This document shows positions 2,103 through 23,201 of a DNA stretch of 32,000 nt, piece after piece. Where the stretch lies: positions 30,001 through 62,000 of the forward strand of contig JBMYVL010000010.1 in assembly GCA_049606355.1 (NCBI GenBank), written 5' to 3'. Within the stretch, counting starts at the first letter, position 1. Every line of letters starts with the position of its first letter. The DNA is from Opitutales bacterium. GTDB lineage: Bacteria > Verrucomicrobiota > Verrucomicrobiia > Opitutales > Coraliomargaritaceae. Below the pieces are notes generated by a model, which was not told the DNA's origin, made no database searches, and saw only the letters and a list, made by a program, of their open reading frames with translations. The translations under genes were made by a program, and so were the position numbers.

Positions 2103-5102
2103 ATGAATAAGCCGCCACCTATTTTTGACCGTGCCTTCTGCATCGACTTAGCTGGTGGGCAGGTTTACCGACAGGCGGAAAAACTATTTGAGTCGCAGGC
2201 AGTTCAATCAGCGTCTTGGGACAGCCCCCAATTAACTGGTAGGGTTAAGGGTGCGGCAGCGACTTACGAAGTACGGTTGAACCTTCGTTCGACCGTTTTT
2301 GCAGAAAACCACTGTAATTGTCCAGTTGGTCGTAAAGGTAAAATTTGTGCACACGCAATCGCGGTTGCCCTGCATTATCAAGCCCTCGCTCACGAGCATG
2401 AACTGCAGACTAAAGCGCTGACGCCTGTGGATGGCGACGAGCCGATAGGTCTCAGCGCAAGCGAAGCGATTGCTGCTCCCGATTCGGCGCTACAATCCAT
2501 CCTGCTGTCCGAAGACGGGATGCAATTACGCTTACTGGTCTTTCTTCCGCCGAATCTCAAAGAGGCTGCTGGGCGAGATGCGATTGTAGTGAAAGTGGAT
2601 GCTGCGGTGGGGCGCGAGGTCGTACCGCTGAATCAACTAAATCGCAGTCAGCCGTATCAAGTATGCGCTGCGCAAGAGCGTGCCCTTCGCTTGATTGAAT
2701 CTTGGTGCTCGGGTAAACTGGCCGCACTCTTGCAATTGAGCCGTGTACAATTCGTTCAATTGCTGGAAGCCTTACGCAGTGAGCCAGTAATTTATTGGCT
2801 GAAGCGGCCGTCGGAGCCGATTCGCTGGAAGGGTGACCACTTGGTTGGTGTGCATGAGCAAGTGGAGCTTGCTCCTGATGAAAAACAAGCAGCCGTGGCT
2901 GAGGAGGCCGCGAAGCGCGTCGATAAAAGTCCGCCACCACGCCGCATTGAACTCAAAGCAAGTTTACGAGAGGCATCGAAGCCCAACCCACGTCGACTTG
3001 CTGAGGCGAAGGCGCAGGGGCTCTTTGCGACACGAGCCAGTGATTATCCAAGCGTGCAGTCCAAGGACCCGATGCTGGATTATCCCTTGAACCGTATTGT
3101 CGTTGACGGATCGGCTAACTACATAGCCATACGTTTACCACGCAATGATGATACAATCGGACCCTTGCGAGATCGACTTAAGTCGGAGGGGTTTTTACTG
3201 GAGCCTTCCAACCGAAAGTGGTGGCTCCGTGATCGGCACAAAGCGTTGAATTTCCTGGCAGGGTACCTGCATGATTTAAAGACGCATTGGCGTGCGGTGT
3301 TTACGGATAACTTTGAAGCTAAGCTGGAGCTGCTGCAGATTGCTGATATCGCCATCGAAACTGCGGAAGAAAACGGCAGTTTTAGACTGCAGGTGAGCCT
3401 AAGCCAAAACACAGATGAGGTAAGTTTACGCAAAGCGATCGCAACCGGGCGGAATTATTTTGAGGATGCCGATGGCGCGATCACCTTGCTCGAGCGACAC
3501 TTGGTCGAGCGTTTGCACAAGGTAGAAAAGGCGATTAGCGGTCAGGTGGATCGACCGTTTACGCCAACTTTCAGTAAGCGCCTTGAGTGTGCGGAACTTT
3601 TGGATGTTGAGGACTTGCTGGATGAAATCTGCGAGGGTTGGCAGCCACCGCAAGCATGGCAGGCACGCAGTCAGGCGCTCAAGCAAGTGGGCGCTCTCCA
3701 GCCCCCGCCGATACAATCCTCTCTTGATGCAGCGTTACGAACTTATCAACGGATAGGGGTGGCATGGCTCTGGCACCTCTATCGCCATCAGCTTGGCGGT
3801 ATTTTGGCGGATGAAATGGGGCTTGGTAAGACCTTACAAGCACTTGCCTTGATTGAATGTATCCGTGGTGAGGATACAACCAAGTCTCCAGCTCTGGTTG
3901 TCTGCCCCGCGAGTTTGGTAGAAAATTGGATGCGAGAAGCATCGCGTTTCACGCCTCACTTAAAGTTATTGAAGCACCACGGTTCAAGACGTGCGAAGGA
4001 GTCAGTTGTACTCGAAGATGCCGACCTTGTTATTTCATCATATGGCACGCTTCGCCAAGATGCAGAGTTGATGAGTACCATGGATTGGTGTGTTGTGATC
4101 GGTGACGAAGCGCAGCATATAAAAAATCGCCGCAGCCAAAATGCACGTACGCTCAGTAGCCTTCATTCGAAAGGGCGCTTCTTGCTTACAGGTACACCGG
4201 TTGAAAACTCTTTGGATGATTTACTTTCACTATTTAGTTTTTTGATGCCCGGATACTTACAAAAGGCGGAGGGAAAGCTGTCTCAGGAAGATCGGATCTG
4301 GCACAGTCAGCGACAAACCCAGCGTGCGGCCGCTTATATTTTAAGACGTACCAAAAAGGAAGTTGCACCAGAGTTGCCGGATAAAATTGAGAAAACATTC
4401 TTTTGTGAAATGGGAGCAAAACAGGCGCGTTTTTATCAAGATACTCTGGAAAAAACCCGTAGGGAAATCTTTGAGATGGAAATGGGCGGCGCAAATGGTG
4501 GTCGTGTTCAGTTTGCAGCTTTTAAAGAATTGCTGCGCCTGCGGCAGGCTTGTGTGGACCCACGCATCCTAGACGCCACGTTTGCCGCGAGCGAGTCAGC
4601 CAAGCTCGCAGCCTTTGACGAAGTACTCGATGAATGTCTGGATGTCGGGAGTCGTATGTTGGTCTTTTCGAGCTTTGTGAGTGCGTTGAAATTGTTGGCA
4701 GAGCACCTCAAAGCAAAGGGGCATCGCTTTTGCTATTTGGATGGATCGACGCGCAATCGCTTAGCGATATGTGATACTTTTAATGCAGATGAAGAGATCC
4801 CGGTTTTCCTGATTTCGCTCAAGGCAGGTGGTACCGGTTTAAATTTAACCGGCGCTGATACGGTGATTCACTACGACCCTTGGTGGAATCCAGCTGCCGA
4901 AGCACAAGCGACTGACCGTGCCCACCGCATCGGGCAACAAAAAGTGGTCACGAGTATTAAATTGATAGCCGCCAACACAGTGGAAGAAAAAGTGCTTGAG
5001 TTGCAGGCGAAGAAAGCGGAGTTGCTAACCGAACTCTTTGAGGAGTCCGCTGCAGCAAATGCGACGGTCAATGTCGAGACGATCAAAGAATTACTCGATT
5101 GA
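2103..5102 (+). CDS. SNF2-family ATP-dependent helicase/translocase with an N-terminal SWIM zinc finger
   Basis: A SWIM CxCx(n)CxH motif ([14 protein letters not shown]) spans residues 71-84 (nt 2313-2354). SNF2_N motifs are [10 protein letters not shown] (Walker A), DEAQHIKN (DEAQ box) and [11 protein letters not shown]. The Helicase_C motifs are [43 protein letters not shown]. Confidence 0.9.
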
Positions 5103-5171
5103 ACAGCGGCACTAGACGCTATCAGAAGTCTTGCGTCGCGGCGGTGTCTGCTGTCTGCTGTGGGTACAGAC

Positions 5172-6101
5172 ATGGCAGATTCTTGGGATATTTTGAAACT
5201 ACTTTCAGACTCCACGCGGGTACGAATTCTTTCTTTGTTAGCGCGGGAAGAGTTGTCGGTGGCGGAATTGCAGGAAGTTTTGAGCATGGGTCAGTCTCGT
5301 ATTTCCTCGCACTTGAGTTTGTTGCGTCAAGGTGAGTTAGTGCTGGATCGCCGTGATGGTAAGAAGACTTTTTATACCTTGAGTTGTGAGGGTACACCTT
5401 CAGCTGACGCCCTAATGCGCGCTGCTTGTCAGGCGGTTGCCAAGACCGAGCAGATCGCAGAAGATCAAGCCAACCTGAAGCGCGTCCTCGAAAAAAGGAA
5501 ACGCAAGGCGGAAGAGTATTTTAATTCGGTGGCGGGTCGCTTAGGGAAGAATTATTGCCCTGGACGTAGCTGGGAAGCGATCGGTCATTTTTTACTGCAC
5601 CTAACGCCCAAAATAAAAATTGCCGATCTGGGCGCCGGAGAAGGTTTAATCTCGCAATTATTAGCACGACGCGCCGAACAGGTGACGTGCATTGATAACT
5701 CACCAAAGATGGTCGAGTTTGGTTCGGAATTGGCGAAAAAGAATGGATTTTCCAATCTGAGTTATAAACTTGGAGATATTGAAGCTGTGCCGCTTAAAGA
5801 CAAAAGTGTGGACTTGGCACTTCTGAGCCAAGCCCTTCACCATGCCCCACACCCTCAGCAAGCGGTACAGGAAGCCTTTCGAATTTTAAAGCCGGGTGGG
5901 CAGTTGATTATTTTGGACCTACTGGAGCACCAGTTTGAGAAGGCTCGCGAATTATATGCCGATGAGTGGCTCGGATTCTCCGAAAATAATCTGTATAAAT
6001 TTTTAAAGACAGCCGGCTTTCGCCAGATCGAGGTAAATGTTGTAGCGAAAGAGCGAGAGGCGCCACAGTTCGAGACCGTTTTAGCTTCGGGCGTGAAGTG
6101 A
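5172..6101 (+). CDS. ArsR-family winged-HTH regulator fused to a class I SAM-dependent methyltransferase-like domain (SahR-like architecture)
   Basis: The N-terminus has an ArsR-type HTH (LKLLSDSTRVRILSLLAREELSVAELQEVLSMGQSRISSHLSLLRQGELV). The C-terminal half has methyltransferase motif I (IADLGAGEGLIS) and post-I/II motifs (LKPGGQLIILD). The ORF opens at GTG 5160 and the first ATG is at 5172. Confidence 0.8.
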   Translation: MADSWDILKLLSDSTRVRILSLLAREELSVAELQEVLSMGQSRISSHLSLLRQGELVLDRRDGKKTFYTLSCEGTPSADALMRAACQAVAKTEQIAEDQANLKRVLEKRKRKAEEYFNSVAGRLGKNYCPGRSWEAIGHFLLHLTPKIKIADLGAGEGLISQLLARRAEQVTCIDNSPKMVEFGSELAKKNGFSNLSYKLGDIEAVPLKDKSVDLALLSQALHHAPHPQQAVQEAFRILKPGGQLIILDLLEHQFEKARELYADEWLGFSENNLYKFLKTAGFRQIEVNVVAKEREAPQFETVLASGVK

Positions 6102-6173: not shown

Positions 6174-7724
6174 TTATTGGACTGCGAAAGGAAGCTGCTG
6201 AACTTGCTCTCGAAGGCGCTTCATAACCCGGAGCCTAGCTGCGGCATCATAATTGTCGCCAAGATCTAAATAGTCGCGCGCGATAAATCGGTCGATCACG
6301 ACGGCGTGCTTGATGTTAGTGAGCATGCCAATCAAACGACCATTTTTAGTGAAAGCGAAATCTCCTTTGGAGGATGCATAATCGCTGAAGAGTTCTCCGA
6401 GGACAGGTCGTTGTATTTGTAGAAATTGGGCACTCTGAGTCAGACGGCGGAATTCCGCACGGCCGAAATTGCTTTCGTCGCTTTTAATCAGTATCGCTTC
6501 CTCCCAGCGATCCGGTTGTTCGGCGATCGCAAAGCTACGAAGTTCTGTGTCTTCGACCAGTTTCTTTGATAGTGGTATGAGTAAGACTCTTGGATCACTC
6601 TGTAAGAAAGCTATTTGATCGATAGTGTAGTGACGGTTTGCGATACGTATCGTGAGCGACACAGTCTGCAGCTCCACGTTTTTATGGAGCGCGAAGGGCG
6701 AGTTCTGGCTGTGCGTGATCAGATAATAATTTCCGGAGCTATCCTTTAGTAGGACGCTATTAGACGAATATGTCTTTGGGTGGATAAGGCCGAAGAGGCC
6801 TTTTTCGGTACTTTGAAAATCAATACGGACCCGGTTGTTTTGAAAGTGGCTGTAGATCTCACTCATCGTCTGCGGTCGTGACTCGATGATTTCCTTTTGT
6901 ATGTACTGTGACGTAGTTGCCACGGTGCTCATCTCCCTTTCCAGTTCCGATACATTCTGGCCGATCTTTGTGAGGCCTTGTCCCAACTGTTCGGCGCGAG
7001 CGATTGCGGCTTTTTTCTCCTCTTGCTCCTTCACTAAATTTTGCTCAAGGAGGTCACGTGCGGTCTCGGTTACTTCCAGTTGCTTATCCAATGCGTTGCG
7101 CTCTGCGGCTAGGCGTGCTGTTTCGGCTTGTGCCTGTTTAAGTGCCGCGTCGCGCTCAGCGAGGGCGATTTCACGGGCGATGAGTGCCTCTTCGATGTGG
7201 CTGATGCGCGCTTGGCTACGGGCACTTTCTTGCTTCAAGCTACCGAGGGATTGCGCGAGCTCGAATCGTTTTTTTTGAGTGGATTCAAGTTCCATACGTG
7301 TCGCTTCGAGGCGTGCCGCGATGGCTTTTTCAGCTTGCTTGCTCTGCGCCTGCTGTTCTGCCAAGCGCAGTGCTTCGCGCTCACTGGCTGCCTTGGCAGC
7401 CGCCAAATCTTGTGCGATGGCGGTGGCTTCGCTTAGGCTGGCCTGACTTGCTGCCAGTGCGACTTCTTGTTCGGCAAGGATATGTGTCTTGGTCTGTAAC
7501 TGGCGTCGGGTTTCGGCGAGTTTATCGCTGAGGTCTGCACGTGAACTTTCTTCGGCCATGAGTGTGGCTTCCAGCAGACTGACTAGTTCGGCTTCCGCAG
7601 TCGTGGAAACCGCACTCGGATCCAATGTGACCTTCGGTTCAATTTCGGGGGCATCAAAACGTGCCAGAGCCAACATGCTGAGCAGTAAAAAGTCACAAAT
7701 AACAAGCATGAGAGTTTTATTCAT
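6174..7724 (-). CDS. Bitopic membrane protein: ExbD/TolR/MotB-like TM helix with a buried Asp, then a coiled coil of about 225 residues, then a trypsin-fold-like (probably inactive) C-terminal domain
   Basis: The 521-aa ORF opens at TTG 7739 and the first ATG is at 7724 (MNKTLMLVICDFLLLSMLAL). It has a single N-terminal TM helix with Asp16 (nt 7692-7694). Residues ~45-270 are Ala/Glu/Gln/Leu-rich with heptad character. Residues ~290-485 are globular. It lies 40-55 nt downstream of the 585-aa membrane protein on the same strand. Confidence 0.6.
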   Translation of the reverse strand: MNKTLMLVICDFLLLSMLALARFDAPEIEPKVTLDPSAVSTTAEAELVSLLEATLMAEESSRADLSDKLAETRRQLQTKTHILAEQEVALAASQASLSEATAIAQDLAAAKAASEREALRLAEQQAQSKQAEKAIAARLEATRMELESTQKKRFELAQSLGSLKQESARSQARISHIEEALIAREIALAERDAALKQAQAETARLAAERNALDKQLEVTETARDLLEQNLVKEQEEKKAAIARAEQLGQGLTKIGQNVSELEREMSTVATTSQYIQKEIIESRPQTMSEIYSHFQNNRVRIDFQSTEKGLFGLIHPKTYSSNSVLLKDSSGNYYLITHSQNSPFALHKNVELQTVSLTIRIANRHYTIDQIAFLQSDPRVLLIPLSKKLVEDTELRSFAIAEQPDRWEEAILIKSDESNFGRAEFRRLTQSAQFLQIQRPVLGELFSDYASSKGDFAFTKNGRLIGMLTNIKHAVVIDRFIARDYLDLGDNYDAAARLRVMKRLREQVQQLPFAVQ

Positions 7725-7779
7725 AAGCTGTACGGGCAAATTTAATTGCGACTGCTGTAATACCGCTGTTCGGATTGGT

Positions 7780-9537
7780 TCAGTTGCCGTTTTCGGGATG
7801 ACCTACGCTAGGTTGTAGTACTGAGTACGAGGACTCGGCTGCCATGATGAGTTTGCGGCGATAAGGGCGTAGATGGAGCACCTTTAATAACGCGACAAAA
7901 AGAATACCAAAGAGAGTGGAGGCATAGGCTGCCATTAAACTGGCCTCGACAAGACCGATCGCGACCATGATGAGGGACAGCACCGTACCGCCGAGACCAA
8001 CATACAGTCCGAAGTCGAACAGATTGTCTTCATTGTCGAGCAGCTTGAGTTTCAGCTCAGCGTTGAGCTGCTGTTTCTCGATTTCACGCAGCTTTATTAA
8101 ACAAAAGCTGTAAATGACCAATTGAATGATGAAGAAGAGAATGAGCACTAGGAGTGTGACTTGATTGATTTCTTGCATAGCTTTGATTGGAGTTTGCAGG
8201 GATTGCAGGCTGTCAGCGACCGCAAATTCGATACGTGGGCTCGCTCCCGCGCTGCTGCCAAGTTGAGTTTTAAGCAGCTCTGGCTCATGGAGGAACCAAA
8301 CCGTCAATACCAGAGCAAGGCTTAGCAGAGAATCGCGCATCAAAACCGCTGGATTGTGCCGTGACACCGGCTGTGAATAGCGCTGCAAGCGGCTACGCCA
8401 GAGGGCGCCCATTGCCCATGTAAAACAAAACCCGCCCGCCAGTAGCAGCGTGAATTTAAGGAGTCGGCCCCCCATGGCGCTGTGATGCGTGATCTTGACA
8501 AACCACTGCGGCTGATAGGGCGCGGCAACTCGAAGGGCGTGCTTGAACAGCACGGGCGGCCGATAACGTACCTGTCCAGTCTCGAGTAGATATTGAACGG
8601 CGGCGGGTCCATGACTCAGTGCGTAGTTGAGATCCGCTACTGCGGTCGTCGGATGTTTGGCATAATAATCGTAAACGAGTTTGGGGGCCCGACTATGGTA
8701 GAGGGAGCTAAAAATCGTTGTGATGTGTTCCGGATCGGCACGTATGAGGGCGGCGATGGAAGCCCAATCATCAAGGTTTTGTGTGCGTGCCGCGAGTGCG
8801 CTTAGGGAGCGGAAATCCATATGCCCTGCGATGGACAAGGTGGCGATAACCAGATCTTCCATAGCCTTGACAGCGCGCGGTTGGCTATCGTGCGCTTGCT
8901 GTGCAAGGGTGCCAATCTCGCGTGCTAGACTGGGGTTAAAGGCCTCACTTTGCATGAGTAGTGCCAGTGTCAGGACCCCTGAGTCGAAGGGTGCTCCGGC
9001 AGGATGATCGGCCGGGTGCAGGCGTAGCAGACCACGTAAATTGCGGATACGCAGTATATGTACCACATGGCGATGACTGGATGCAGCGAGTTGATCAGCG
9101 AGTAAGGTGCGATTGGCGCGCGGTAGAAGTGCTGAGAGTACCGCATGGCGGTGATGTTCGGTCGGCAGAGGCCACTGGATACGTTCGAGGAACGGCTCAA
9201 ATACAGGTGCGGGCCCACCGCTCAGCCGATAGTGGGGATGGGTGTCATAGAGTGCGTTAATTTGCTGGGTCAGGGCACGACGATCCCGCTCGTTGTTGAG
9301 GCTGGCATCACATAATTTTTGGGCGACGCCGACGTTAGCTGTGGCAAGTGCATCCCATGCGGTCTGTTTGGGGGAGAGGCCTTGTTGCCCCGCATCGGCA
9401 AGCACGCGGGAATCGACCGAATGAATCTGGGCCGGTACGCATAGACCAAGTAGAATGAGTCCGCAGGCGGCGATCCACAAAGCAAGGGTCTTCAGTAGGA
9501 TGAGCATGTTGCGTACTTCACACATAAGCTTACGCAA
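7780..9537 (-). CDS. Six-TM membrane protein: N-terminal anchor, ~330-aa extracytoplasmic His-rich domain, and a C-terminal three-helix module resembling the ExbB/TolQ/MotA proton channel
   Basis: The 585-aa ORF opens at TTG 9537, with ATG alternatives at 9525 and 9507. Hydrophobic segments are at residues ~12-34, ~369-390, ~413-427, 460-481, 510-530 and 532-554. The motif VGLGGTV resembles ExbB/TolQ GLFGTVWG, and AAYASTLFGILFVAL resembles ALLATAIGLVAAI. The positive-inside rule gives an ExbB-like topology for the last three helices. Confidence 0.6.
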   Translation of the reverse strand: MRKLMCEVRNMLILLKTLALWIAACGLILLGLCVPAQIHSVDSRVLADAGQQGLSPKQTAWDALATANVGVAQKLCDASLNNERDRRALTQQINALYDTHPHYRLSGGPAPVFEPFLERIQWPLPTEHHRHAVLSALLPRANRTLLADQLAASSHRHVVHILRIRNLRGLLRLHPADHPAGAPFDSGVLTLALLMQSEAFNPSLAREIGTLAQQAHDSQPRAVKAMEDLVIATLSIAGHMDFRSLSALAARTQNLDDWASIAALIRADPEHITTIFSSLYHSRAPKLVYDYYAKHPTTAVADLNYALSHGPAAVQYLLETGQVRYRPPVLFKHALRVAAPYQPQWFVKITHHSAMGGRLLKFTLLLAGGFCFTWAMGALWRSRLQRYSQPVSRHNPAVLMRDSLLSLALVLTVWFLHEPELLKTQLGSSAGASPRIEFAVADSLQSLQTPIKAMQEINQVTLLVLILFFIIQLVIYSFCLIKLREIEKQQLNAELKLKLLDNEDNLFDFGLYVGLGGTVLSLIMVAIGLVEASLMAAYASTLFGILFVALLKVLHLRPYRRKLIMAAESSYSVLQPSVGHPENGN

Positions 9538-9635
9538 GTACTCGATGAGGGCAAGTGTATGCGTGGAGCGTAGCCGAAAAGTGCTGCGTTAGAAAGGCAT
9601 TGCCAGCCGCGATTCAGGGCCCTTTCTCTACCTGC

Positions 9636-10373
9636 ATGGATGCGGAAAAAGTACGCACTTATTTTGAAGCGGAAACAGTGGTCGAGCAGTATGCCAACGC
9701 AGCTACTCAACTCGGGCTGTGGTTGTCTGAAGAGAAATTATTCACCAAACTTTTTGCGCCGAGTGACTCAATTTTGGAGCTCGGCTGTGGGGCTGGCCGT
9801 ATCGCGATGGGGCTCCATGAGCTCGGTTACCGCAATGTGCTCGGCACCGATTACGCAAAAGCCATGGTGCAGCGGGCGCGGCAATTGGCCAAATTGTTGG
9901 AATATTCGATTCCGTTTCGCATCGCCGATGCCACTCGATTGAAATTCGAGGATAATGTTTTCGATGGCGCTATTTTTGGCTTCAACGGCTTGATGCAGAT
10001 CCCCAAGACCAGTCAGCGGGAGTTGGCTTTGCGTGAGATTTACCGTGTCTTGCGACCGGGGAGCTGGTTTGTGTTTACCACACATGATCGCGACGTATCG
10101 CCCCACCGGAAATTTTGGGCGGATGAGCAGGCACGCTGGCAGGCAGGTGCACAATCAGCGGAATTGGACGATTTTGGAGACCGTGCGGAGGAGACTGCCG
10201 CCGGCCAGCATTATATGCACGTCCCGACAGTGTCTGAAATGAGTGCCTTACTCACTGCAGTCGGCTACCGAATCGAGGCACATGCACTGCGTTCGGCGCT
10301 TGCCGATGAACCTGACGACGTGCGCGAATTCTCGGATGAGTGTCGTTTTTGGGTCGTACAGAAGCCTAGCTGA
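9636..10373 (+). CDS. Class I SAM-dependent methyltransferase, substrate unknown
   Basis: Motif I is [15 protein letters not shown]. The post-I acidic residue is in VLGTDYA, and motifs II/III are in [14 protein letters not shown] ... LRPGSWFVF. The ORF opens at 9555, but the ATG at 9636 ([11 protein letters not shown]) gives a typical length. Confidence 0.8.
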
Positions 10374-10374
10374 T

Positions 10375-10950
10375 TTAAGTTTCGCGGCAGCAGGTGCAGG
10401 TGTAGCAGAAGGCGCGTAATGTTTCCGACCAATGATCTTCAGGTAAATTGGCCTTACGCAGCAGCGCTTTAAAAAATGCCTCCGGGGTCGGTAGCGATTG
10501 CCAAACCGCGGGCAGAAAGGTCGCGTGGTGAGAATTATCTTCAATCAGCAGCCCATCGATTCCAGGTCGTAATTGACTGAGCAAGTCGGCACGATTGCTT
10601 ATGGCGAGGGGTTGGAGTGTATCGAGAATGGATAACTGGAGCCGCGTGTGCCGAAGCTCAGCGACTGTCAGTGGAGCAAAACGCACATCATGAAACGCTG
10701 CGTTACACGCTTGGGTGGCGACGGCTTGTACCAGTGGTTGATTGGCTTCTAGAGTGCCGACGCAGCCACGTAATTGCTGGTCGAGCATTAAAGTGACGAA
10801 ACAGGCACGCTTGCTCTGTAGCTGTTTGGGGTAGAGCGCTGTTTGCACTGCAAGCGGAGTACCTGTTTCGAGGTGATGCAGGATTGATTGACGAGCCAGT
10901 TGTAGGAGCCGTGTCTCGTCTGCCTTGCTGTACTGCTGCGTGGATTCCAT
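10375..10950 (-). CDS. amrA: AmmeMemoRadiSam system protein A (AMMECR1 domain)
   Basis: The AMMECR1 signature LRGCVGTLEANQPL is present. The size is 191 aa. The gene starts 10 nt downstream of the Memo-family gene. Confidence 0.85.
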   Translation of the reverse strand: MESTQQYSKADETRLLQLARQSILHHLETGTPLAVQTALYPKQLQSKRACFVTLMLDQQLRGCVGTLEANQPLVQAVATQACNAAFHDVRFAPLTVAELRHTRLQLSILDTLQPLAISNRADLLSQLRPGIDGLLIEDNSHHATFLPAVWQSLPTPEAFFKALLRKANLPEDHWSETLRAFCYTCTCCRET

Positions 10951-10960
10951 GTGTGTTTTC

Positions 10961-11764
10961 TCAGCCTGCTACGAGGCTCCATGCGCCGTAGCCGACGACA
11001 CGCTGACGGTTGCCTGTGCTGTCTCCCGAATTGCCTAGGTCGAGGGTGTGGACTGTGAGTCGCTGGGACTGTGCCGCTTGCAGCAGACCGTTGAGCGCAT
11101 AGGCGCCACAGGCTTCGTGGGTGCCTATTTGAGTGGAGTTAAGCTGTTCAATTTTACGGCAGGTCGTAGCATCGATCCGGCGTGCGCTGGCATCGTCCAA
11201 ATAGTGGCTCAGGTCAGTACTCAACAGCACGAGGCTATCTTTCGACCATAAGGCCTGAATGACGGCAGCCACACTGGCTGCGGTGGCTACTCCAACGAGC
11301 AGGGGTACAATCGTAAAGGAGTCCAACACGCACTGCAGGAAGGGGAGTTGCACTTCGAGACAATGCTCATGGCTGTGGGCGTGTTCGATCATATGTACTT
11401 GCGGAAATTCGAGAGTTTGCGCAACGGCACTCCGGTCGACCGTCACGTCGCCAAGCGGGCTGCGAAAAACGTGGGCCGTGCTCACCGCAAGTCCGTCGAA
11501 GCAGGAATAATGTGATGGGCCCAGCAAGAGGATTCGGCGGATGGATTTACTGGACTGCTGGAGTCGATGGTAAGCTGCTCCAGCGACGGATCCGGAGTAC
11601 GTGTACCCCGCATGTGGCACAATCAATGCCCGCAGGATGGCGTGATTGGGATGCGGTGCCGCGGTCCTCACGAAATGGAGGACTTGGTCTTTTAATTGAT
11701 CCGCATTGCTGGGGTAAAACAGGCCGGCTACCGCGGGCTGTCGAACGTGCGAGGGATACATCAC
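10961..11764 (-). CDS. amrB: AmmeMemoRadiSam system protein B (MEMO1 family)
   Basis: The Memo signature LIVPHAGYTYSG and His-rich motifs (HAHSHEHCLEVQLPFL) are present. The size is 267 aa. Confidence 0.85.
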   Translation of the reverse strand: MMYPSHVRQPAVAGLFYPSNADQLKDQVLHFVRTAAPHPNHAILRALIVPHAGYTYSGSVAGAAYHRLQQSSKSIRRILLLGPSHYSCFDGLAVSTAHVFRSPLGDVTVDRSAVAQTLEFPQVHMIEHAHSHEHCLEVQLPFLQCVLDSFTIVPLLVGVATAASVAAVIQALWSKDSLVLLSTDLSHYLDDASARRIDATTCRKIEQLNSTQIGTHEACGAYALNGLLQAAQSQRLTVHTLDLGNSGDSTGNRQRVVGYGAWSLVAG

Positions 11765-11849
11765 TTTACGTTAGTTTAACCATGTATGGGGCCCCCTGCA
11801 AGCGAGGTGCATGAATTGACCCACCGGGAATGACGCGTTATTGTAAGCG

Positions 11850-12935
11850 ATGAAAGCCATTCAGCAGTCGCAGTATTCGGCCAGATATTGGGAGCGGTTA
11901 ACTGATGGGCGGATTCGTTGTACGCTGTGCCCTCGTTACTGTAAATTAAAGGATGGTCAGCGTGGCATGTGTTTCGTGCGGCAGCGCCGTGGCGATCGTA
12001 TGATTCTGACCACTTATGGCCGTTCCAGTGGCTTTTGTATCGATCCAATCGAAAAAAAACCTCTCAACCATTTTCTGCCAGGCTCGCCGGTACTTTCCTT
12101 TGGCACCGCAGGGTGTAACTTAGCCTGCAAATTTTGCCAGAATTGGGACATTAGTAAGTCGCGCGAATGGGACACCTTGTGTGATGCAGCCAGTCCGCAA
12201 CAGATCGCAAGGGCCGCACGCAACCAACATTGTCGGAGCGTCGCCTTCACGTACAATGATCCAGTGATCTTCACGGAGTATGCGATGGATGTGGCTCAAG
12301 CCTGCCGCGAGCTCGGGATCAAGGCGGTTGCAGTTTCCGCTGGCTATATGTGTGCGGAGCCGCGCGCCGATTTATATGCACATATAGATGCTGCGAATAT
12401 CGATTTAAAGGCCTTTACTGAGGACTTCTACCGCAAGATGACCGGTGGGCATCTGGAACCAGTACTCGATACGATTCGTTACCTTCACCATGAAACGCCG
12501 GTATGGTTGGAATTGACTACCTTGCTCATTCCCGGACTCAACGATAGCTCGGAAGAAATCGATACTCTAACGCGCTGGGTCGTCGAAGAGTTGAGCGTCG
12601 ATGTCCCCATACATTTTACCGCCTTTCATCCAGACTGGAAGTTGCGTGATCGGCCGCCGACATCCGCTGATACCTTGAGTCGTGCCCGGCGCATTGCCAT
12701 GCAGAATGGGCTGCGTTACGCGTATACCGGAAATGTTCACGACGTCGCCGGCGGGAGTACCTACTGTGCGGGCTGTGGGCACTGCTTGGTGAAGCGTGAT
12801 TGGTATCTGATTCGTGACTACAATTTGACCAATACCGGTTCCTGTCGATTCTGTGGCCTGCAGTGTGCCGGCGTCTATGAAGGATCCTGCGGTACTTGGG
12901 GCGCGAAGCGCCAGTCGCTGCGCATTTCGATTTAA
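11850..12935 (+). CDS. amrS: AmmeMemoRadiSam system radical SAM enzyme
   Basis: The radical-SAM cluster motif is CNLACKFCQNW. There is an N-terminal Cys motif (CTLCPRYCKLKDGQRGMC) and a C-terminal Cys motif (CAGCGHC ... CRFCG), typical of the PflA-like AmrS family. It is divergent from amrB-amrA. Confidence 0.85.
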   Translation: MKAIQQSQYSARYWERLTDGRIRCTLCPRYCKLKDGQRGMCFVRQRRGDRMILTTYGRSSGFCIDPIEKKPLNHFLPGSPVLSFGTAGCNLACKFCQNWDISKSREWDTLCDAASPQQIARAARNQHCRSVAFTYNDPVIFTEYAMDVAQACRELGIKAVAVSAGYMCAEPRADLYAHIDAANIDLKAFTEDFYRKMTGGHLEPVLDTIRYLHHETPVWLELTTLLIPGLNDSSEEIDTLTRWVVEELSVDVPIHFTAFHPDWKLRDRPPTSADTLSRARRIAMQNGLRYAYTGNVHDVAGGSTYCAGCGHCLVKRDWYLIRDYNLTNTGSCRFCGLQCAGVYEGSCGTWGAKRQSLRISI

Positions 12936-20928: not shown

Positions 20929-23127
20929 CTACCACTCGTAGTTCAGCGTCACACCGAACTGCTGTGGATCGGCTGGATTCTCATAGCGGCGAGTGACGGC
21001 TGCGTAGCCGTCATCTGGATGGTAGTTGTCGAAGTTGAAGATACGTTTTTCGTATGCTTCGTCGAAGAGGTTTTTACCCCAGACTGTGAGGGTCCAACCT
21101 TCGTAGCGATAGCCGATTGCGGCATTGAATATGGCAAACACGTTGCGCTTTTCGTTGTGGCTGTTTGATTCGAAGAACTCGTCGCTGCCAGTTGCTTCGA
21201 AGTTTGCGAAGAAGCCGCAGTCGGATTGGTAGTTCACACGAACGTGGTAGTTGAAGCTCGGAGCATTGGCTAAGTTTCGCGATGGCACGTAGATTCCGAG
21301 TGCTTCGTCGATCTCATCTGCGTCAAGGTCTTTATCAATATCCTCGTCTGATGCTAGCGAAGTGTAGCCGTTGCGGTCTGTATCGAGCAAGCCCAACCCT
21401 GCGCTAACAGTCCAGTTCTTTGATGCATGCCAGGTTGCTTCGGCCTCAAGACCAATATGGTGGGCATCGTTGCCATTAATTGTAAGGTAGCGGAAAAAAC
21501 CACCCGCTCCGGCAGAGTCTCTGAGCTGTGCATTTTGCCGATGTAGGTAGAACCCAGTGATCTGGCTCGAGATCGATCCATCGATCCAATCGCTGCGCAA
21601 TCCTATCTCGAAGTTGTAAAGCGTTTCATCGTCATAGGTTGCCGGGTCAAAATCGAATCCGAAACTCGAGACGTTAGCTCCACCGGCTTTGTAGCCCCTA
21701 GCAGCGCTGGCAAAGAGCATGTGTTCTTCGTTGAGGTCATGCTCGAGGGTAAGTTTCCCTCCCCAGAGGATGCCGTCTTCATTGCTCTTGCCGCTGAGGA
21801 GTCTTCCAGCATACCACCCGGAATCAGTGCCGATACTGGATGTTTCGATGTCGTAATGCTCTAGACGTAGTCCGAGTGTTAAGCGAGTGGCGTTAGAGAA
21901 GTCGTGCGCGATTTGGCCGAATAGAGTGAAACTTTGGTGTTCGTAGTCGGAAACAGCGTCCATTGTGCCGTAATCATCGTCGTAGTCTGCAAGAGATTCC
22001 TCCTCGAGGAAATTATAATAAGCGCCTAAAGTCCAGCGATCGATCCAATCTAATGAATAGTCTTGGTCTTTCGAATCAAGGCGAAGCTCCTGAGAGATGG
22101 TATCGCGTTTCCTGTCGATCTCGAGGAATCCGAGGTAGCCACTGTCGAACGGCGGGGCAACATAGCCAGCACCCCAGTCGTTATCGTAACTGTAAATGGA
22201 GTCTGTATCTGTACCACTTAGGATGTAGGTGACGTTGGCTGTGTTCCAGCCGGTCCAAGTGCCACGGATACTGCCAGCGATCGATTTCTGCTCATCACGG
22301 CCGGGTTCGTCGGAGAAGGTGTCAAAGCGGGTATTGTCCAGCGACCACTCGTCGTAGCCATTGTCGGCATCTGCGTAAAATAGCGTGGCATCCCACTGCC
22401 AATCTTCGTTCGCGATCCAGCGAAGCTTGAGGCGGGTGTTGAGTTCGTCGCGCTCGTTGGTGTCGTCTTTCCCGAGAAATTGATTGTCGCGAAAGCCATC
22501 TTGCTGGAGTTGGTAGGTGGAGAAGCGGAAGGTCAACCGCTCCGGATCGTCCTCAAGTAGAGGGCCACCGATTGCGAACCCTGTTGAAATCAGGTTGTCT
22601 TCACCGATGGTGCCTTCGACTTGTCCGCTCCACTCGGAAGTCGGCTCGTTGGTGACGATCTTGATCACACCCCCCGCTGCGTTGACACCGTAGGCACCCG
22701 CCTGTGGGCCGCGGAGCACTTCGACCTGTTGTACGTCGAAGAGATTGCCGATGCCGCCGAGGCCGGTGAAGTCAAGGTCATCGACGAGAAAGCGGACCGA
22801 GGAGTCGGGTGTTTCACCTTCGAACTGGGAGTTTTCACCGATGCCGCGGATCTGGAAGTAGCGTGGGCGGGAGGTGCCGCCGGTCCAAGTTAGATTGGGG
22901 ATCGCATTGATCAGATCCTCGAAGTGCTGGGTGTCGCCTGCGAGGCGTTCGCTGTCGAAAGCAGTCACGCTGGCGGTCGTGCGAGTGAGGTCGCTCTCCC
23001 ACAAACTACCGGTGACGACAAAGTCGGGCAGTTCGTGGATGTCCTTCGCGCTGGCAGGAGCAGTCGTTTGTGCACTTAGGCCGCTTGCAAGAACGGCGAA
23101 TGCAATTGTGGTTTTGATGTTCGTCAT
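20929..23127 (-). CDS. TonB-dependent outer-membrane receptor, probably for thiamin or a thiamin precursor
   Basis: The signal peptide is MTNIKTTIAFAVLASGLSAQ. Plug-domain motifs are VEVLRGPQAGAYG and GGVIKIVT. The beta-barrel ends in the terminal aromatic motif GVTLNYEW. The ATG is at 23127 and the ORF opens at TTG 23139. A TPP riboswitch precedes the gene. Confidence 0.9.
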   Translation of the reverse strand: MTNIKTTIAFAVLASGLSAQTTAPASAKDIHELPDFVVTGSLWESDLTRTTASVTAFDSERLAGDTQHFEDLINAIPNLTWTGGTSRPRYFQIRGIGENSQFEGETPDSSVRFLVDDLDFTGLGGIGNLFDVQQVEVLRGPQAGAYGVNAAGGVIKIVTNEPTSEWSGQVEGTIGEDNLISTGFAIGGPLLEDDPERLTFRFSTYQLQQDGFRDNQFLGKDDTNERDELNTRLKLRWIANEDWQWDATLFYADADNGYDEWSLDNTRFDTFSDEPGRDEQKSIAGSIRGTWTGWNTANVTYILSGTDTDSIYSYDNDWGAGYVAPPFDSGYLGFLEIDRKRDTISQELRLDSKDQDYSLDWIDRWTLGAYYNFLEEESLADYDDDYGTMDAVSDYEHQSFTLFGQIAHDFSNATRLTLGLRLEHYDIETSSIGTDSGWYAGRLLSGKSNEDGILWGGKLTLEHDLNEEHMLFASAARGYKAGGANVSSFGFDFDPATYDDETLYNFEIGLRSDWIDGSISSQITGFYLHRQNAQLRDSAGAGGFFRYLTINGNDAHHIGLEAEATWHASKNWTVSAGLGLLDTDRNGYTSLASDEDIDKDLDADEIDEALGIYVPSRNLANAPSFNYHVRVNYQSDCGFFANFEATGSDEFFESNSHNEKRNVFAIFNAAIGYRYEGWTLTVWGKNLFDEAYEKRIFNFDNYHPDDGYAAVTRRYENPADPQQFGVTLNYEW

Positions 23128-23130
23128 TTT

Positions 23131-23201
23131 GGATCTCAATTATTGTGTTGTTGAGATCCGGCTTTTGGCGACGGAAGGGTGGAGCACTCACAAAGTGCTC
23201 C
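23131..23201 (-). promoter_or_regulatory. Expression platform of the TPP riboswitch: two hairpins, the second ending 3 nt before the start codon
   Basis: On the minus strand the first hairpin is GGAGCACTttgtgAGTGCTCC (23201..23181). It is followed by acccttcc, which resembles the 5' strand of aptamer P1. The second hairpin is GGATCTCAAcaacacaataaTTGAGATCC (23159..23131), followed by aaaATG. Neither hairpin has a U-tract, which suggests translational occlusion rather than termination. Confidence 0.6.

What the first reader, a model, noticed from the sequence alone, without database searches (positions are those of the whole stretch)
6174..9537. Two-gene module resembling an ExbB/ExbD-TolQ/TolR-MotA/MotB ion-driven stator, with an architecture matching no characterised family I know
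Seen in sequence, A-like protein: residues 460-555 of the 585-aa protein (nt 7873-8160) form TM, a 28-aa cytoplasmic loop, TM, TM, and a basic C-terminal tail. This is the ExbB/TolQ topology. The segment carries VGLGGTV (compare GLFGTVWG) and AAYASTLFGILFVAL (compare ALLATAIGLVAAI). Both Thr positions that line the proton path in ExbB/TolQ are kept (T518, nt 7984-7986, and T541). Seen in sequence, B-like protein: the next gene lies 40-55 nt downstream on the same strand. Its product starts with a single TM helix containing a buried Asp (LMLVICD16FLLLSMLAL), like ExbD D25, TolR D23 and MotB D32. The A-then-B gene order matches exbBD, tolQR, motAB and zorAB. Unusual features: the A-like protein has three extra N-terminal helices and an extracytoplasmic domain of about 330 aa. 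The B-like protein has no OmpA/PG-binding domain, ExbD periplasmic fold, or TonB/TolA C-terminal domain. It has instead a coiled coil of about 225 residues and a 200-aa globular head. Inference: by the positive-inside rule the coil is periplasmic, and a continuous helix of that length (about 30 nm) could reach the outer membrane. The pair would then be a proton-motive-force transducer that merges ExbD-like and TolA/TonB-like roles in one chain.
Basis: partly seen in the sequence, partly recalled or inferred. Interest (0 to 1): 0.85.

Follow-up and report, generated by a model that had tools for sequence, protein, structure and literature searches.

The report
Probable new ion-driven envelope motor pair
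Two adjacent, uncharacterised membrane-protein genes conserved across the Opitutales (Verrucomicrobiota) look like a very divergent relative of the ExbB/ExbD–TolQ/TolR proton-driven motors, with a new build: the axle protein itself carries a roughly 30-nm helical stalk tipped by a dead HtrA-like protease domain.

Summary
Two minus-strand genes, A (7780-9537, 585 aa) and B (6174-7739, 521 aa), have the described topology, motifs and order. Both belong to large, unannotated families restricted to Verrucomicrobiota, mainly Opitutales. B follows A directly in 67 of 80 genomes, often with a 4-bp overlap.

The stator interpretation is partly supported. Pfam, NCBIfam, PADLOC, PDB-sequence and Foldseek searches all fail to link A to MotA/ExbB. 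That equals the score of genuine MotA and exceeds all shuffled templates and 129 unrelated multi-TM proteins.

The most conserved parts of the pair are A's TM5/TM6 and B's Asp-bearing TM helix. The Asp is present in 63 of 64 B sequences.

My best reading (confidence about 0.55) is a new, lineage-specific variant of the 5:2 proton-motor theme whose B subunit is also the periplasm-spanning force transducer. The closest precedents are GldLM and the TPH-vWA/TolQ-like pairs. Stoichiometry, ion flow and function are untested.

The parts
7780..9537 (-). Gene A: 585-aa (probably 575-aa, starting at M11 = nt 9505-9507) six-TM inner-membrane protein
   Evidence: ORF list. 154 close homologues and 653 representative homologues, all unannotated. 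AF2 model pLDDT 82.
9433..9498 (-). A TM1 (residues ~14-35), a variable N-terminal membrane anchor
   Evidence: AF2 helix 2-32. Entropy 2.63 bits, as variable as the soluble parts.
8476..9432 (-). A extracytoplasmic all-helical domain (residues 36-354), fold unassigned
   Evidence: AF2 shows an all-alpha domain with pLDDT about 90. No significant PDB Foldseek match. No Pfam match. Few invariant positions. The periplasmic side is inferred from the basic loop after TM2.
8278..8475 (-). A TM2, basic cytoplasmic loop and TM3 (residues 355-420)
   Evidence: AF2 helices 354-387 and 396-422. Loop K+R 2.3 against D+E 1.1. Variable sequence, about 2.6 bits.
7870..8157 (-). A C-terminal three-TM module (residues 461-556: TM4, 27-aa cytoplasmic loop, TM5, 4-residue hairpin, TM6); candidate MotA/TolQ/ExbB-like ion-conducting core
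   Evidence: hhalign against the TolQ/ExbB profile: P 5.6e-4 (family profile) and 9e-5 (window sequence). MotA control P 7e-4. 0 of 150 shuffled templates reach the observed score. 129 unrelated TM proteins reach at most 25.7 against 30-33.5 observed. Reciprocal rank enrichment P 6e-6. This is the most conserved part of A.
7984..7986 (-). T518 in TM5 (motif YVGLGGTV), aligned to TolQ T145 / ExbB T148
   Evidence: T in 135 of 139 and S in 4. T in 81 of 81 genomic loci. Register from hhalign.
7915..7917 (-). T541 in TM6 (motif AAYASTLFG), aligned to TolQ T178 / ExbB T181; G544 aligns to G181
   Evidence: T in 127 of 139, N in 10, S in 2. Register from the hhalign MAC alignment with the broad profile.
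8122..8124 (-). Q472, an invariant polar residue in TM4 at about the same membrane depth as T518 and T541
   Evidence: Q in 139 of 139 and 81 of 81. Depth is counted from the flanking charged residues (inference).
7740..7779 (-). A-B intergenic spacer (40 nt to the TTG, 55 nt to the likely ATG at 7722-7724); no terminator-like site
   Evidence: In relatives the gap runs from -32 to +134 nt and is often a 4-bp overlap.
6174..7739 (-). Gene B: 521-aa (probably 516-aa) bitopic protein, the candidate axle / force-transducer subunit
   Evidence: ORF list. 231 homologues, with adjacent locus tags to A homologues. Directly downstream of A in 67 of 80 loci.
7662..7715 (-). B N-terminal TM helix (residues 9-26, TLMLVICDFLLLSMLALA) with buried Asp16 (nt 7692-7694)
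   Evidence: D in 63 of 64. Helix entropy 0.61 bits, conserved on all faces (conservation moment 0.06); this is the most conserved segment of either protein.
7017..7607 (-). B long helix (residues 45-241, 197 residues, about 29 nm if straight), the presumed coiled-coil stalk
   Evidence: AF2 shows a single helix with pLDDT 80-90. Length changes among homologues come in 7-residue steps. Only coiled-coil-type noise hits such as SMC and JetC.
6933..7016 (-). B heptad-repeat / low-confidence segment (residues 242-269; LGxGVSx-type repeats whose copy number varies between homologues)
   Evidence: Alignment A3 columns 260-300. pLDDT below 50.
6177..6887 (-). B C-terminal head (residues ~285-521): HtrA/DegS-like trypsin-fold domain lacking a conserved catalytic Ser (pseudo-protease)
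   Evidence: Foldseek against PDB: the top 22 hits are all HtrA/Deg/trypsin-like, best E 3.4e-4, probability 1.00. The position of the nucleophile is L, F, Y or V and never Ser. His343 is H in only 43 of 64, Asp382 is D in 61 of 64. No Pfam Trypsin hit. Sequence-profile similarity to DegS/P/Q is not significant.

Best explanation
A and B form a lineage-specific inner-membrane machine of the MotA/B-ExbB/D-TolQ/R kind.

The last three TM helices of A (TM4-6) would make a ring around the all-face-conserved TM helix of B. B's Asp16 would sit level with a polar belt made of A's T518, T541/S540 and Q472, so that proton (or ion) flow is coupled to movement of B relative to A.

Unlike ExbD, TolR or MotB, B has no peptidoglycan-binding or ExbD fold. 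It continues into the periplasm as a helical stalk of about 200 residues (about 29 nm) that ends in a catalytically dead HtrA-like domain. That domain is presumably a peptide- or protein-binding head that engages a partner in the cell wall or outer membrane.

Unlike ExbB, TolQ or MotA, A has almost no cytoplasmic domain. It carries three extra variable TM helices and a 320-aa helical periplasmic domain that may form a collar around the base of the stalk.

Shown here: gene pairing, topology, conservation pattern, remote motif-level similarity, and the fold of the head.

Inferred: ring-and-axle assembly, 5:2 stoichiometry, ion coupling, periplasm spanning, and the ligand of the head.
For: (1) Profile-profile similarity of A residues ~507-555 to TolQ/ExbB TM2-TM3.
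- Probability 30%, P 5.6e-4 for the family profile; probability 60%, P 9e-5 over 47 columns for the window sequence.
- With a broader reference profile: 39 columns, with T518~T145, T541~T178 and G544~G181.
- Genuine MotA scores the same against this profile (probability 26%, P 7e-4).
- 0 of 150 composition-preserving shuffled templates reach the observed scores (null 14 +/- 3, maximum 28).
- 129 unrelated multi-TM proteins from the same genomes reach at most 25.7, while 4 genuine ExbBs score 84-104.
- 117 of 139 family members align over the TolQ GLFGTV motif in the same register.
- In the reciprocal search, TolQ/ExbB proteins rank 1, 6, 8, 10, 11 and 27 of 180 (hypergeometric P 6e-6, Mann-Whitney P 2.5e-4).

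(2) The conserved core is exactly what the model needs. Entropy is 0.61 bits for B's TM (all faces), 0.92 for A TM6, 1.24 for TM5 and 1.73 for TM4, against about 2.6 for A TM1-3 and the soluble domains.

(3) A buried Asp in a single-pass N-terminal helix is present in 63 of 64 B sequences, about 7 residues from the cytoplasmic end. This matches TolR D23, ExbD D25 and MotB D32, read from the fetched E. coli sequences.

(4) Operon-like A-then-B order in 67 of 80 genomes, often with 4-bp overlaps, and no other conserved neighbour.

(5) The topology and charge distribution fit N-in/C-in for A and N-in/C-out for B.

(6) The head has the fold of periplasmic HtrA proteases.

(7) Precedent exists for B-type subunits that are themselves the transducer (TPH-vWA, PMC12204202).
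Against: - No HMM-versus-sequence method links A to PF01618 or to any solved stator. This covers Pfam for 30 members, NCBIfam, PADLOC ZorA models, and the A1 and A4 profiles against all PDB sequences at E <= 10.
- Foldseek of the whole A model finds no ExbB, TolQ or MotA.
- The HH signal rests mostly on one 8-13-residue motif, and its probability is only 23-60%.
- The median family member (score 24) overlaps the top of the background, and MotA is not recovered in the reciprocal test (rank 134 of 180).
- The TM2 proline of MotA/ExbB/TolQ is Leu here. The periplasmic hairpin is 10-15 residues shorter. The cytoplasmic domain is only 27 residues.
- B's TM helix has no detectable similarity to TolR/ExbD.
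- HtrA domains are typically trimeric (established knowledge), which sits awkwardly with a dimeric axle.
- About 10 of 80 loci have no B within 10 kb.
- One B homologue has Gly in place of the Asp (L078).
- B length varies from 440 to 596 aa, which is loose for a fixed periplasm-spanning ruler.
Confidence: 0.55

Rival explanations
1. Passive envelope tether or scaffold. A is a polytopic membrane platform. B is a membrane-anchored coiled-coil spacer whose dead-protease head binds a wall or outer-membrane component. The conserved TM residues, including the Asp, serve only A-B assembly in the membrane, with no ion flow or movement. The resemblance to TolQ TM2/TM3 would be convergent small-and-polar helix-packing motifs.
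For: All database-level tests for MotA/ExbB membership are negative. The HH match is short, with probability 23-60%. GxxxG/T-rich helix-packing motifs are common (established knowledge). Stalk length is variable. The genomes already carry canonical ExbB-ExbD.
Against: An invariant unpaired Asp in a single-pass helix, with no conserved basic partner in A's TM helices, is costly for pure assembly. The match falls in the correct order, spacing and topology on two consecutive helices, and both functional Thr positions coincide. The background of real TM proteins does not produce such scores. The gene order and the depth of the Asp match known stators.
Confidence: 0.25
2. Envelope-stress or signalling device. 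B is a DegS-like sensor or (pseudo)protease held on a stalk, and A is its membrane partner, regulator or substrate channel, as in regulated-proteolysis cascades.
For: The head has an HtrA/DegS fold. His343 and Asp382 equivalents are kept in the window protein and in many homologues.
Against: No conserved nucleophile: the Ser position is L, F, Y or V, and His is present in only 43 of 64. There is no PDZ domain and no Pfam Trypsin hit. No sigma, anti-sigma or regulator gene is conserved nearby. The strongest constraint is on the TM helices, not the head.
Confidence: 0.08
3. A is an ion channel or transporter in its own right, and B is an unrelated neighbouring coiled-coil protein that is merely co-transcribed.
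For: A occurs without an adjacent B in about 10 of 80 loci with all key residues intact. A gives sub-threshold Vpu (viroporin) matches over TM4 plus the following helix in 30 of 30 members.
Against: 67 of 80 loci keep tight, often overlapping A-B pairing across 30% sequence identity. B's TM helix is the most conserved segment of the pair and is conserved on all faces, which is unlike a lipid-exposed anchor. The Vpu match is below Pfam's threshold and is a TM-plus-amphipathic-helix composition match.
Confidence: 0.07
4. Zorya-like or other anti-phage defence system built on a MotAB-type motor.
For: Zorya also combines a MotA/B-like pair with a very long coiled coil (established knowledge).
Against: PADLOC finds no ZorA or ZorB match. 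No ZorC/D-like or nuclease genes are conserved nearby. The module is single-copy among housekeeping genes across a whole bacterial class. The coil is on B and is predicted to be periplasmic, not on A and cytoplasmic.
Confidence: 0.02

Closest known systems
ExbB-ExbD / TolQ-TolR (MotA_ExbB PF01618 + ExbD PF02472) 5:2 proton motors
   Same: A-then-B gene order. A's last three TM helices share ExbB's topology (N-out, C-in). The TM2 motif Y-V/I-G-L-x-G-T-V and the TM3 motif A-x-T-x-x-G fall in the same order, with both lumen Thr positions aligned. B has a single N-terminal TM helix with a near-invariant Asp near the cytoplasmic side.
   Different: No Pfam- or HMM-level membership. The TM2 Pro is replaced by Leu. 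The periplasmic hairpin is 10-15 residues shorter. The cytoplasmic domain is reduced to 27 residues. A has three extra TM helices and a 320-aa periplasmic domain. B has no ExbD/TolR periplasmic fold, and no separate TonB or TolA partner gene is linked. The same genomes also carry ordinary ExbB-ExbD.
TPH-vWA / TolQ-like pairs (Origin and Evolution of Bacterial Periplasmic Force Transducers, MBE 2025, PMC12204202)
   Same: A two-gene motor with no TolR or ExbD. The partner protein has an Asp-bearing 'transpore helix' predicted to sit inside the pentamer and is itself the periplasmic force transducer. These pairs are reported in Verrucomicrobia among other phyla.
   Different: There the A subunit is a recognisable TolQ homologue and the head is a vWA domain, usually in heterologous pairs. 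Here A is not recognisable by standard HMMs, the B gene is single, and the head is a coiled-coil stalk plus an HtrA-like pseudo-protease.
GldL-GldM / PorL-PorM (type IX secretion / gliding motor)
   Same: A two-protein 5:2 motor in which the single-TM 'B' subunit extends as an elongated dimer across the periplasm and transmits motion to outer-membrane components (established knowledge; reviewed in PMC9389320 and PMC8986121, listed).
   Different: GldL has two TM helices plus a cytoplasmic domain, and the key charges are a Glu on GldL and an Arg on GldM. GldM's periplasmic part is made of globular domains, not a coiled coil. No sequence similarity was detected (PDB sequence searches).
Zorya ZorA-ZorB
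   Same: A MotAB-type core combined with a coiled coil tens of nanometres long.
   Different: In Zorya the coil is a cytoplasmic tail on ZorA, ZorB has a peptidoglycan-binding domain, and the system is a mobile defence island with ZorC/D. PADLOC models do not match.
HtrA/DegS/DegP (S1C) periplasmic serine proteases
   Same: B's head has the double-beta-barrel trypsin fold, and its best structural matches are HtrA-family members. Local motifs resemble those around the HtrA His and Asp: YLVTH and DPRxLxIPL (reading of the alignment).
   Different: No conserved Ser nucleophile and a His that is not invariant. No PDZ domain. No significant sequence-profile similarity. The domain is fused to a membrane-anchored stalk.

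Membership tests
MotA/TolQ/ExbB proton-channel family (Pfam PF01618) | Match to the family HMM at or above the curated threshold | tested here: not met
   No PF01618 hit even at E <= 10 for the window protein or for 30 family members. No NCBIfam hit.
MotA/TolQ/ExbB proton-channel family (Pfam PF01618) | Profile-profile similarity over TM2-TM3 at a level comparable to accepted distant members | tested here: inconclusive
   hhalign probability 23-60%, P 9e-5 to 9e-4, equal to the E. coli MotA control (26%, 7e-4). The score exceeds 150 shuffled templates and 129 unrelated TM proteins. The match is short, and the reciprocal separation is incomplete.
MotA/TolQ/ExbB proton-channel family (Pfam PF01618) | Three-TM core with N-out/C-in topology and a cytoplasmic segment between TM1 and TM2 | tested here: met
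   AF2 helices 444-488, 509-526 and 531-573, with the 27-aa loop and the tail rich in K/R. The cytoplasmic segment is far shorter than in any characterised member.
MotA/TolQ/ExbB proton-channel family (Pfam PF01618) | Conserved Thr in TM2 (GxxGTV) and Thr in TM3 facing the B-subunit Asp | tested here: met
   T518 is T or S in 139 of 139. T541 is T or S in 129 of 139. Both align to TolQ T145 and T178. That they face the Asp is not tested.
MotA/TolQ/ExbB proton-channel family (Pfam PF01618) | Structural similarity to solved ExbB, TolQ or MotA | tested here: not met
MotA/TolQ/ExbB proton-channel family (Pfam PF01618) | Pentamer enclosing a dimer of the B subunit (5:2) | not testable with these tools
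   No multimer prediction was available. The only indirect support is that B's TM helix is conserved on all faces.
ExbD/TolR/MotB B-subunits (PF02472 / PF13677+PF00691) | Single N-terminal TM helix with an essential Asp near the cytoplasmic end, encoded directly after the A gene | tested here: met
   D16 is present in 63 of 64 homologues, 7 residues into the helix. B is directly downstream of A in 67 of 80 loci.
ExbD/TolR/MotB B-subunits (PF02472 / PF13677+PF00691) | ExbD/TolR periplasmic fold or an OmpA-like peptidoglycan-binding domain | tested here: not met
   No Pfam or NCBIfam hit. The model shows a coil plus a trypsin-like head.
ExbD/TolR/MotB B-subunits (PF02472 / PF13677+PF00691) | Sequence-profile similarity of the TM segment | tested here: inconclusive
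   B's N-terminus against the TolR/ExbD profile gives P 0.17. The true homologue MotB gives only P 0.045, so the test has no power.
HtrA / S1C serine proteases | Chymotrypsin-like double beta-barrel fold | tested here: met
   The top 22 Foldseek PDB hits are HtrA/Deg/trypsin-like, best E 3.4e-4, probability 1.00, target-normalised TM about 0.45.
HtrA / S1C serine proteases | Conserved His-Asp-Ser catalytic triad | tested here: not met
   The Ser position is L, F, Y or V (0 of 64 Ser). His343 is H in 43 of 64. Asp382 is D in 61 of 64. The register is supported only by co-linear, non-significant alignment to DegS.
Zorya (ZorAB) defence system | ZorA/ZorB HMM matches, linked ZorC/D-type effectors, and island-like distribution | tested here: not met
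   PADLOC gave no ZorA or ZorB match. Only housekeeping neighbours are present. The module is conserved across the class.
TPH-vWA / TolQ-like transducer pairs (PMC12204202) | An Asp-bearing transpore helix on a large periplasmic protein paired with a TolQ-like gene and no TolR | tested here: met
   Searches show the pairing, the Asp and the absence of a TolR-like gene in the module. This holds as a functional analogy only.
TPH-vWA / TolQ-like transducer pairs (PMC12204202) | vWA C-terminal domain and a recognisable TolQ homologue as partner | tested here: not met
   The head is HtrA-like. A is not recognised by PF01618.

The most novel reading that the evidence does not exclude
A previously unrecognised family of ion-driven ring-and-axle motors, conserved across the class Opitutia. 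It is so diverged from MotA/ExbB/TolQ that standard HMMs miss it. The axle protein itself is a rotating or pulling coiled-coil shaft of about 30 nm with a dead-protease 'hand' that grips a wall or outer-membrane ligand. The ring protein has moved its large soluble domain from the cytoplasm to the periplasm. This would be a lineage-specific way to deliver proton-motive energy to the outer envelope alongside canonical Ton.
Probability: 0.45. Interest if true: 0.8.

Novelty: new variant of a known kind. Interest (0 to 1): 0.68.

Why it matters
Known 5:2-type motors power flagella, TonB-dependent uptake, Tol-Pal envelope constriction, gliding and type IX secretion, and Zorya defence. Each new family has revealed a new way to export proton-motive energy from the inner membrane.

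If this reading is right, three points follow:
- A whole bacterial class of abundant marine and soil polysaccharide degraders would have a core envelope machine that nobody has annotated.
- HMM-based surveys would be shown to undercount stator relatives.
- The known design space would grow to include a periplasmic collar on the A subunit and a coiled-coil shaft with a pseudo-protease head on the B subunit.

The hypothesis gives concrete targets for structure prediction, cryo-EM and genetics in cultivable Coraliomargarita or Lentimonas: D16, T518, T541 and Q472.

If it is wrong, the pair is still a conserved, uncharacterised envelope-spanning complex with an unusual buried Asp.

Tried and rejected
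- Single-sequence and per-member Pfam, NCBIfam and PADLOC scans found no stator family. The sub-threshold Vpu matches in 30 of 30 members are a TM-plus-amphipathic-helix composition artefact.
- Family HMMs (A1, A4) against all PDB sequences at E <= 10 returned only noise: allophycocyanin, SERINC, a pilin.
- hhalign against a 3-sequence TolQ/ExbB/MotA alignment was too weak, at 1-2% probability.
- The last homologue search, meant to deepen that reference, returned only 82-100% identical enterobacterial TolQ and was of little use. I built the reference from 80 metagenomic TolQ loci instead.
- One hhalign run used a wrong flag (global mode) and was discarded.
- B's N-terminus against a TolR/ExbD profile gave no signal, but the MotB control shows the test has no power.
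- B's head against a DegS/P/Q profile was not significant by sequence (P 0.067). The fold assignment rests on the structure search only.
- The exhaustive representative search listed only the top 150 hits, all full-length family members. Any bridging relatives among the 653 hits could not be inspected.
- Cluster look-ups of distant members gave no taxon names.
- The promoter and terminator scan was uninformative.
- Defence-system, active-protease and independent-channel readings were considered and ranked low (see rivals).

Full report
**What is in the window.**
The finding covers two minus-strand ORFs: A at 7780-9537 (585 aa) and B at 6174-7739 (521 aa). Close homologues start at A's M11 and B's M6 (P0001 is 575 aa, P0121 is 516 aa). 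The real gap between the genes is therefore about 55 nt, with no terminator-like site in it. The rest of the window is ordinary core chromosome:
- ribosomal protein S1, an SNF2 helicase, an ArsR-methyltransferase fusion
- an AMMECR1/Memo/radical-SAM trio
- RadC, RlmN, XseA, YicC
- a TonB-dependent receptor

**The families.**
A has 154 close homologues and B has 231. None has an informative annotation or a Pfam domain that bears on function (one B homologue, P0238, carries a precomputed PF16454 tag). All named sources are Verrucomicrobiota: Coraliomargarita, Lentimonas, Puniceicoccaceae and Opitutaceae.
- An exhaustive HMMER search finds 653 A representatives at 50% clustering (290 at E <= 1e-30). 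The top 150 are all full-length, 520-610 aa.
- A scan of one genome per species finds at least 532 loci. Nearly all are labelled Opitutales, Opitutia or Verrucomicrobiota.
- Two contigs labelled Polaribacter and Leisingera are probably mis-binned.

**Synteny.**
- B lies immediately downstream of A on the same strand in 67 of 80 loci. Gaps run from -32 to +134 nt, and many are 4-bp overlaps.
- Two or three of the remaining loci are cut by contig ends.
- About 10 loci, from a divergent subclade, have lpxA- and pdxA-like genes after A and no B within 10 kb. Their A proteins keep every key residue, so B may be encoded elsewhere. I could not test this.
- No third gene is conserved with the pair. 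The neighbours are def, a methyltransferase, RadC, RlmN and Fur-like genes.

**Anatomy of A.**
The AlphaFold2 model (pLDDT 82, pTM 0.69) is entirely helical. Its layout is:
- TM1
- a 320-aa helical domain (residues 36-354)
- TM2, a basic loop, TM3
- a disordered 40-aa loop
- the C-terminal module: TM4 (461-483), a 27-aa charged loop, TM5 (511-530), a 4-residue hairpin and TM6 (533-556)
- an RPYRRK tail

Family-wide K+R counts put the TM2-TM3 loop, the TM4-TM5 loop and the tail inside the cell.

Conservation is concentrated in the C-terminal module. Entropy is 1.73 bits for TM4, 1.24 for TM5 and 0.92 for TM6, against about 2.6 bits for TM1-3 and 2.73 for the big domain. Across 139 representatives only 24-50% identical to the window protein:
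- Invariant: F468, Q472, N502, E503, F507, L511, G514, G517, S540, G544, K552, R557
- T518: T in 135, S in 4
- T541: T in 127, N in 10, S in 2

**Anatomy of B.**
The model shows:
- a TM helix at 3-26
- an acidic disordered linker
- a single helix at 45-241 (197 residues; about 29 nm at 0.15 nm per residue)
- a low-confidence stretch of LGxGVSx heptads whose copy number differs between homologues in 7-residue steps
- a beta-rich head

The TM helix (TLMLVICDFLLLSMLALA) is the most conserved segment of either protein. Its entropy is 0.61 bits, and it is conserved on all helical faces. Asp16 is present in 63 of 64 homologues. The segment after the helix is strongly acidic (D+E 4.7 against K+R 1.5 in 15 residues), which fits an N-in/C-out orientation.

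Foldseek places the head in the HtrA/DegS/DegP trypsin fold. The top 22 PDB hits are all of that kind, with best E 3.4e-4 and probability 1.00. The nucleophile position is never Ser (L, F, Y or V), and His343 is H in only 43 of 64 sequences. Sequence-level similarity to DegS/P/Q is not significant. The head is therefore a pseudo-protease, most likely a binding module.

**Is A's C-terminus MotA/ExbB-like? Negative results.**
- No PF01618 match for the window protein or for 30 members, even at E <= 10.
- No NCBIfam or PADLOC ZorA match.
- No stator chain when the family HMMs are run against all PDB sequences.
- No stator in Foldseek of the whole model.

**Is A's C-terminus MotA/ExbB-like? Positive results.**
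I built a reference profile from E. coli TolQ and ExbB plus 80 metagenomic TolQ homologues of 45-100% identity. I compared it with the A family's C-terminal alignment using hhalign.
- The family profile gives probability 30%, P 5.6e-4, score 30.0, on LYVGLGGTVLSLI against PYVGLFGTVWGIM.
- The window sequence alone gives probability 60%, P 9e-5, over 47 columns covering both helices.
- With a broader reference that includes four verrucomicrobial ExbBs and MotA, the alignment spans 39 columns. T518 aligns to TolQ T145, T541 to T178 and G544 to G181, and the hairpin is 10 residues shorter.

**Calibration.**
- E. coli MotA, an accepted family member, scores the same against this profile: probability 26%, P 7e-4, score 30.9.
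- None of 150 composition-preserving column shuffles reaches the observed scores (mean 14, sd 2.8, maximum 26-28).
- Among 133 multi-TM ORFs from the verrucomicrobial loci, four are true ExbBs (scores 84-104). The other 129 reach at most 25.7.
- A-family members have a median of 24.3 and a maximum of 40.1, and 117 of 139 align in the same register.
- In the reverse direction, with the A profile as the model, TolQ/ExbB proteins rank 1, 6, 8, 10, 11 and 27 of 180. MotA ranks 134. The hypergeometric P is 6e-6 and the Mann-Whitney P is 2.5e-4.

The similarity is therefore real and specific to the TolQ/ExbB-type TM2-TM3 hairpin.

**B's TM helix against TolR/ExbD.**
There is no measurable profile similarity (P 0.17). 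MotB also fails this test (P 0.045), so a 20-residue helix gives it no power. The analogy rests on three things: position (first helix, Asp about 7 residues from the cytoplasmic end, compared with TolR D23, ExbD D25 and MotB D32 in the fetched sequences), invariance, and gene order.

**Mechanistic reading.**
The parts under the strongest constraint are A's TM4-6 and B's TM helix, and B's helix is conserved all round. That pattern is expected if B's helix is enclosed by A subunits rather than exposed to lipid. Counting from the flanking charges, Q472, T518, T541/S540 and B's D16 lie at similar depths, 7-11 residues from the cytoplasmic face. That is compatible with a shared polar site (inference).

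I therefore favour a ring-and-axle, ion-coupled complex. B is also the periplasmic transducer, built from a stalk and a binding head. A's periplasmic domain may form a collar around the base of the stalk. Stoichiometry, ion flow, the state of the stalk (dimer or trimer; HtrA domains are usually trimeric) and the head's ligand are all untested.

**Comparison with known systems.**
- These genomes also have ordinary exbB-exbD, and the window has a TonB-dependent receptor. A-B is an addition to Ton, not a replacement for it.
- The idea of a B-type subunit that is itself the transducer has precedents. GldM/PorM is one. The other is the TPH-vWA proteins paired with TolQ-like genes and no TolR, predicted to place their Asp inside the Thr ring and reported in Proteobacteria and Verrucomicrobia (PMC12204202).
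- A recent MotAB phylogeny classifies non-flagellar relatives by their condensed cytoplasmic domains (PMC12505986). In the passages searched it describes nothing like this architecture.
- I found no paper on this family.

**Verdict.**
- Observation: confirmed.
- Interpretation: partly supported.
- Family membership in PF01618 and in ExbD: not established, because the defining HMM tests failed.
- 'Works like a stator': plausible, at about 0.55.
- Novelty: a new variant of a known kind.
- Interest: 0.68.

Noticed in passing
L085:5994-6958, L069:3958-4942, L076:6126-7097 (also L080:18732-19424): The loci whose A gene has no adjacent B carry a canonical exbB-exbD pair (188-191 aa and 132-135 aa) about 3 kb upstream of A on the opposite strand. 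leuD-, lipoprotein- and MFS-like genes lie between them. This may be chance subclade synteny or a hint that A can work with another partner.
   Followed up: partly
L078:10249-11670: One B homologue has Gly instead of the otherwise invariant TM Asp (MNKPLLIVVCGFLIVS), while its A partner keeps Q472, T518 and T541. This may be a MAG sequencing error or a naturally inactive variant.
   Followed up: partly
window 6933-7016 (B residues 242-269) and alignment A3 columns 260-300: A run of LGxGVSx-type heptads varies from about 1 to 6 copies between homologues. JGI labels some members 'X-X-X-Leu-X-X-Gly heptad repeat protein'. AF2 gives this stretch pLDDT below 50. It may be a length-adjustable or flexible joint between the stalk and the head.
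   Followed up: no
window 10375-12935: An AMMECR1 (10375-10950, -), Memo-like (10961-11764, -) and radical-SAM (11850-12935, +) trio. This is the 'AmmeMemoRadiSam' arrangement, whose function is still unknown.
   Followed up: no
window 2103-5102: A 999-aa SNF2-family helicase. Its N-terminus reads like a SWIM zinc finger ([18 protein letters not shown]) by eye. The SWIM motif was not confirmed by Pfam at E <= 1e-5.
   Followed up: partly
window 5160-6101: A fusion of an ArsR-type HTH domain and a SAM-dependent methyltransferase in one 313-aa protein, convergent with the 3' end of gene B.
   Followed up: no
window 20929-23139: A TonB-dependent receptor (Plug plus beta-barrel). The organism therefore uses canonical Ton-type energy transduction as well as the A-B module.
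   Followed up: partly
L017 (labelled Polaribacter sp.) and L040 (labelled Leisingera sp.): Contigs assigned to a Bacteroidota MAG and an alphaproteobacterial MAG carry A-B pairs. A in L017 is 52% identical to the window protein and A in L040 is 35% identical. These are most likely mis-binned Opitutales contigs rather than horizontal transfer.
   Followed up: no
window 7780-9537, A residues 454-499: All 30 A-family members tested give sub-threshold Pfam matches to HIV Vpu (best E 6e-5, below the gathering score), over TM4 plus the following charged helix. I judged this a compositional match (a TM helix followed by an amphipathic helix), not homology.
   Followed up: partly
window 9555-10373 and L004:9051-9791: A class I SAM methyltransferase is divergently transcribed immediately upstream of A, both in the window and in the closest relatives (19 of 80 loci). 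In 30 more distant loci the same position holds peptide deformylase. Neither looks functionally linked to the pair.
   Followed up: partly
window 1-32000: GC skew is positive in every 1-kb bin, so cumulative skew rises monotonically. The window lies within one replichore, with no origin or terminus.
   Followed up: no
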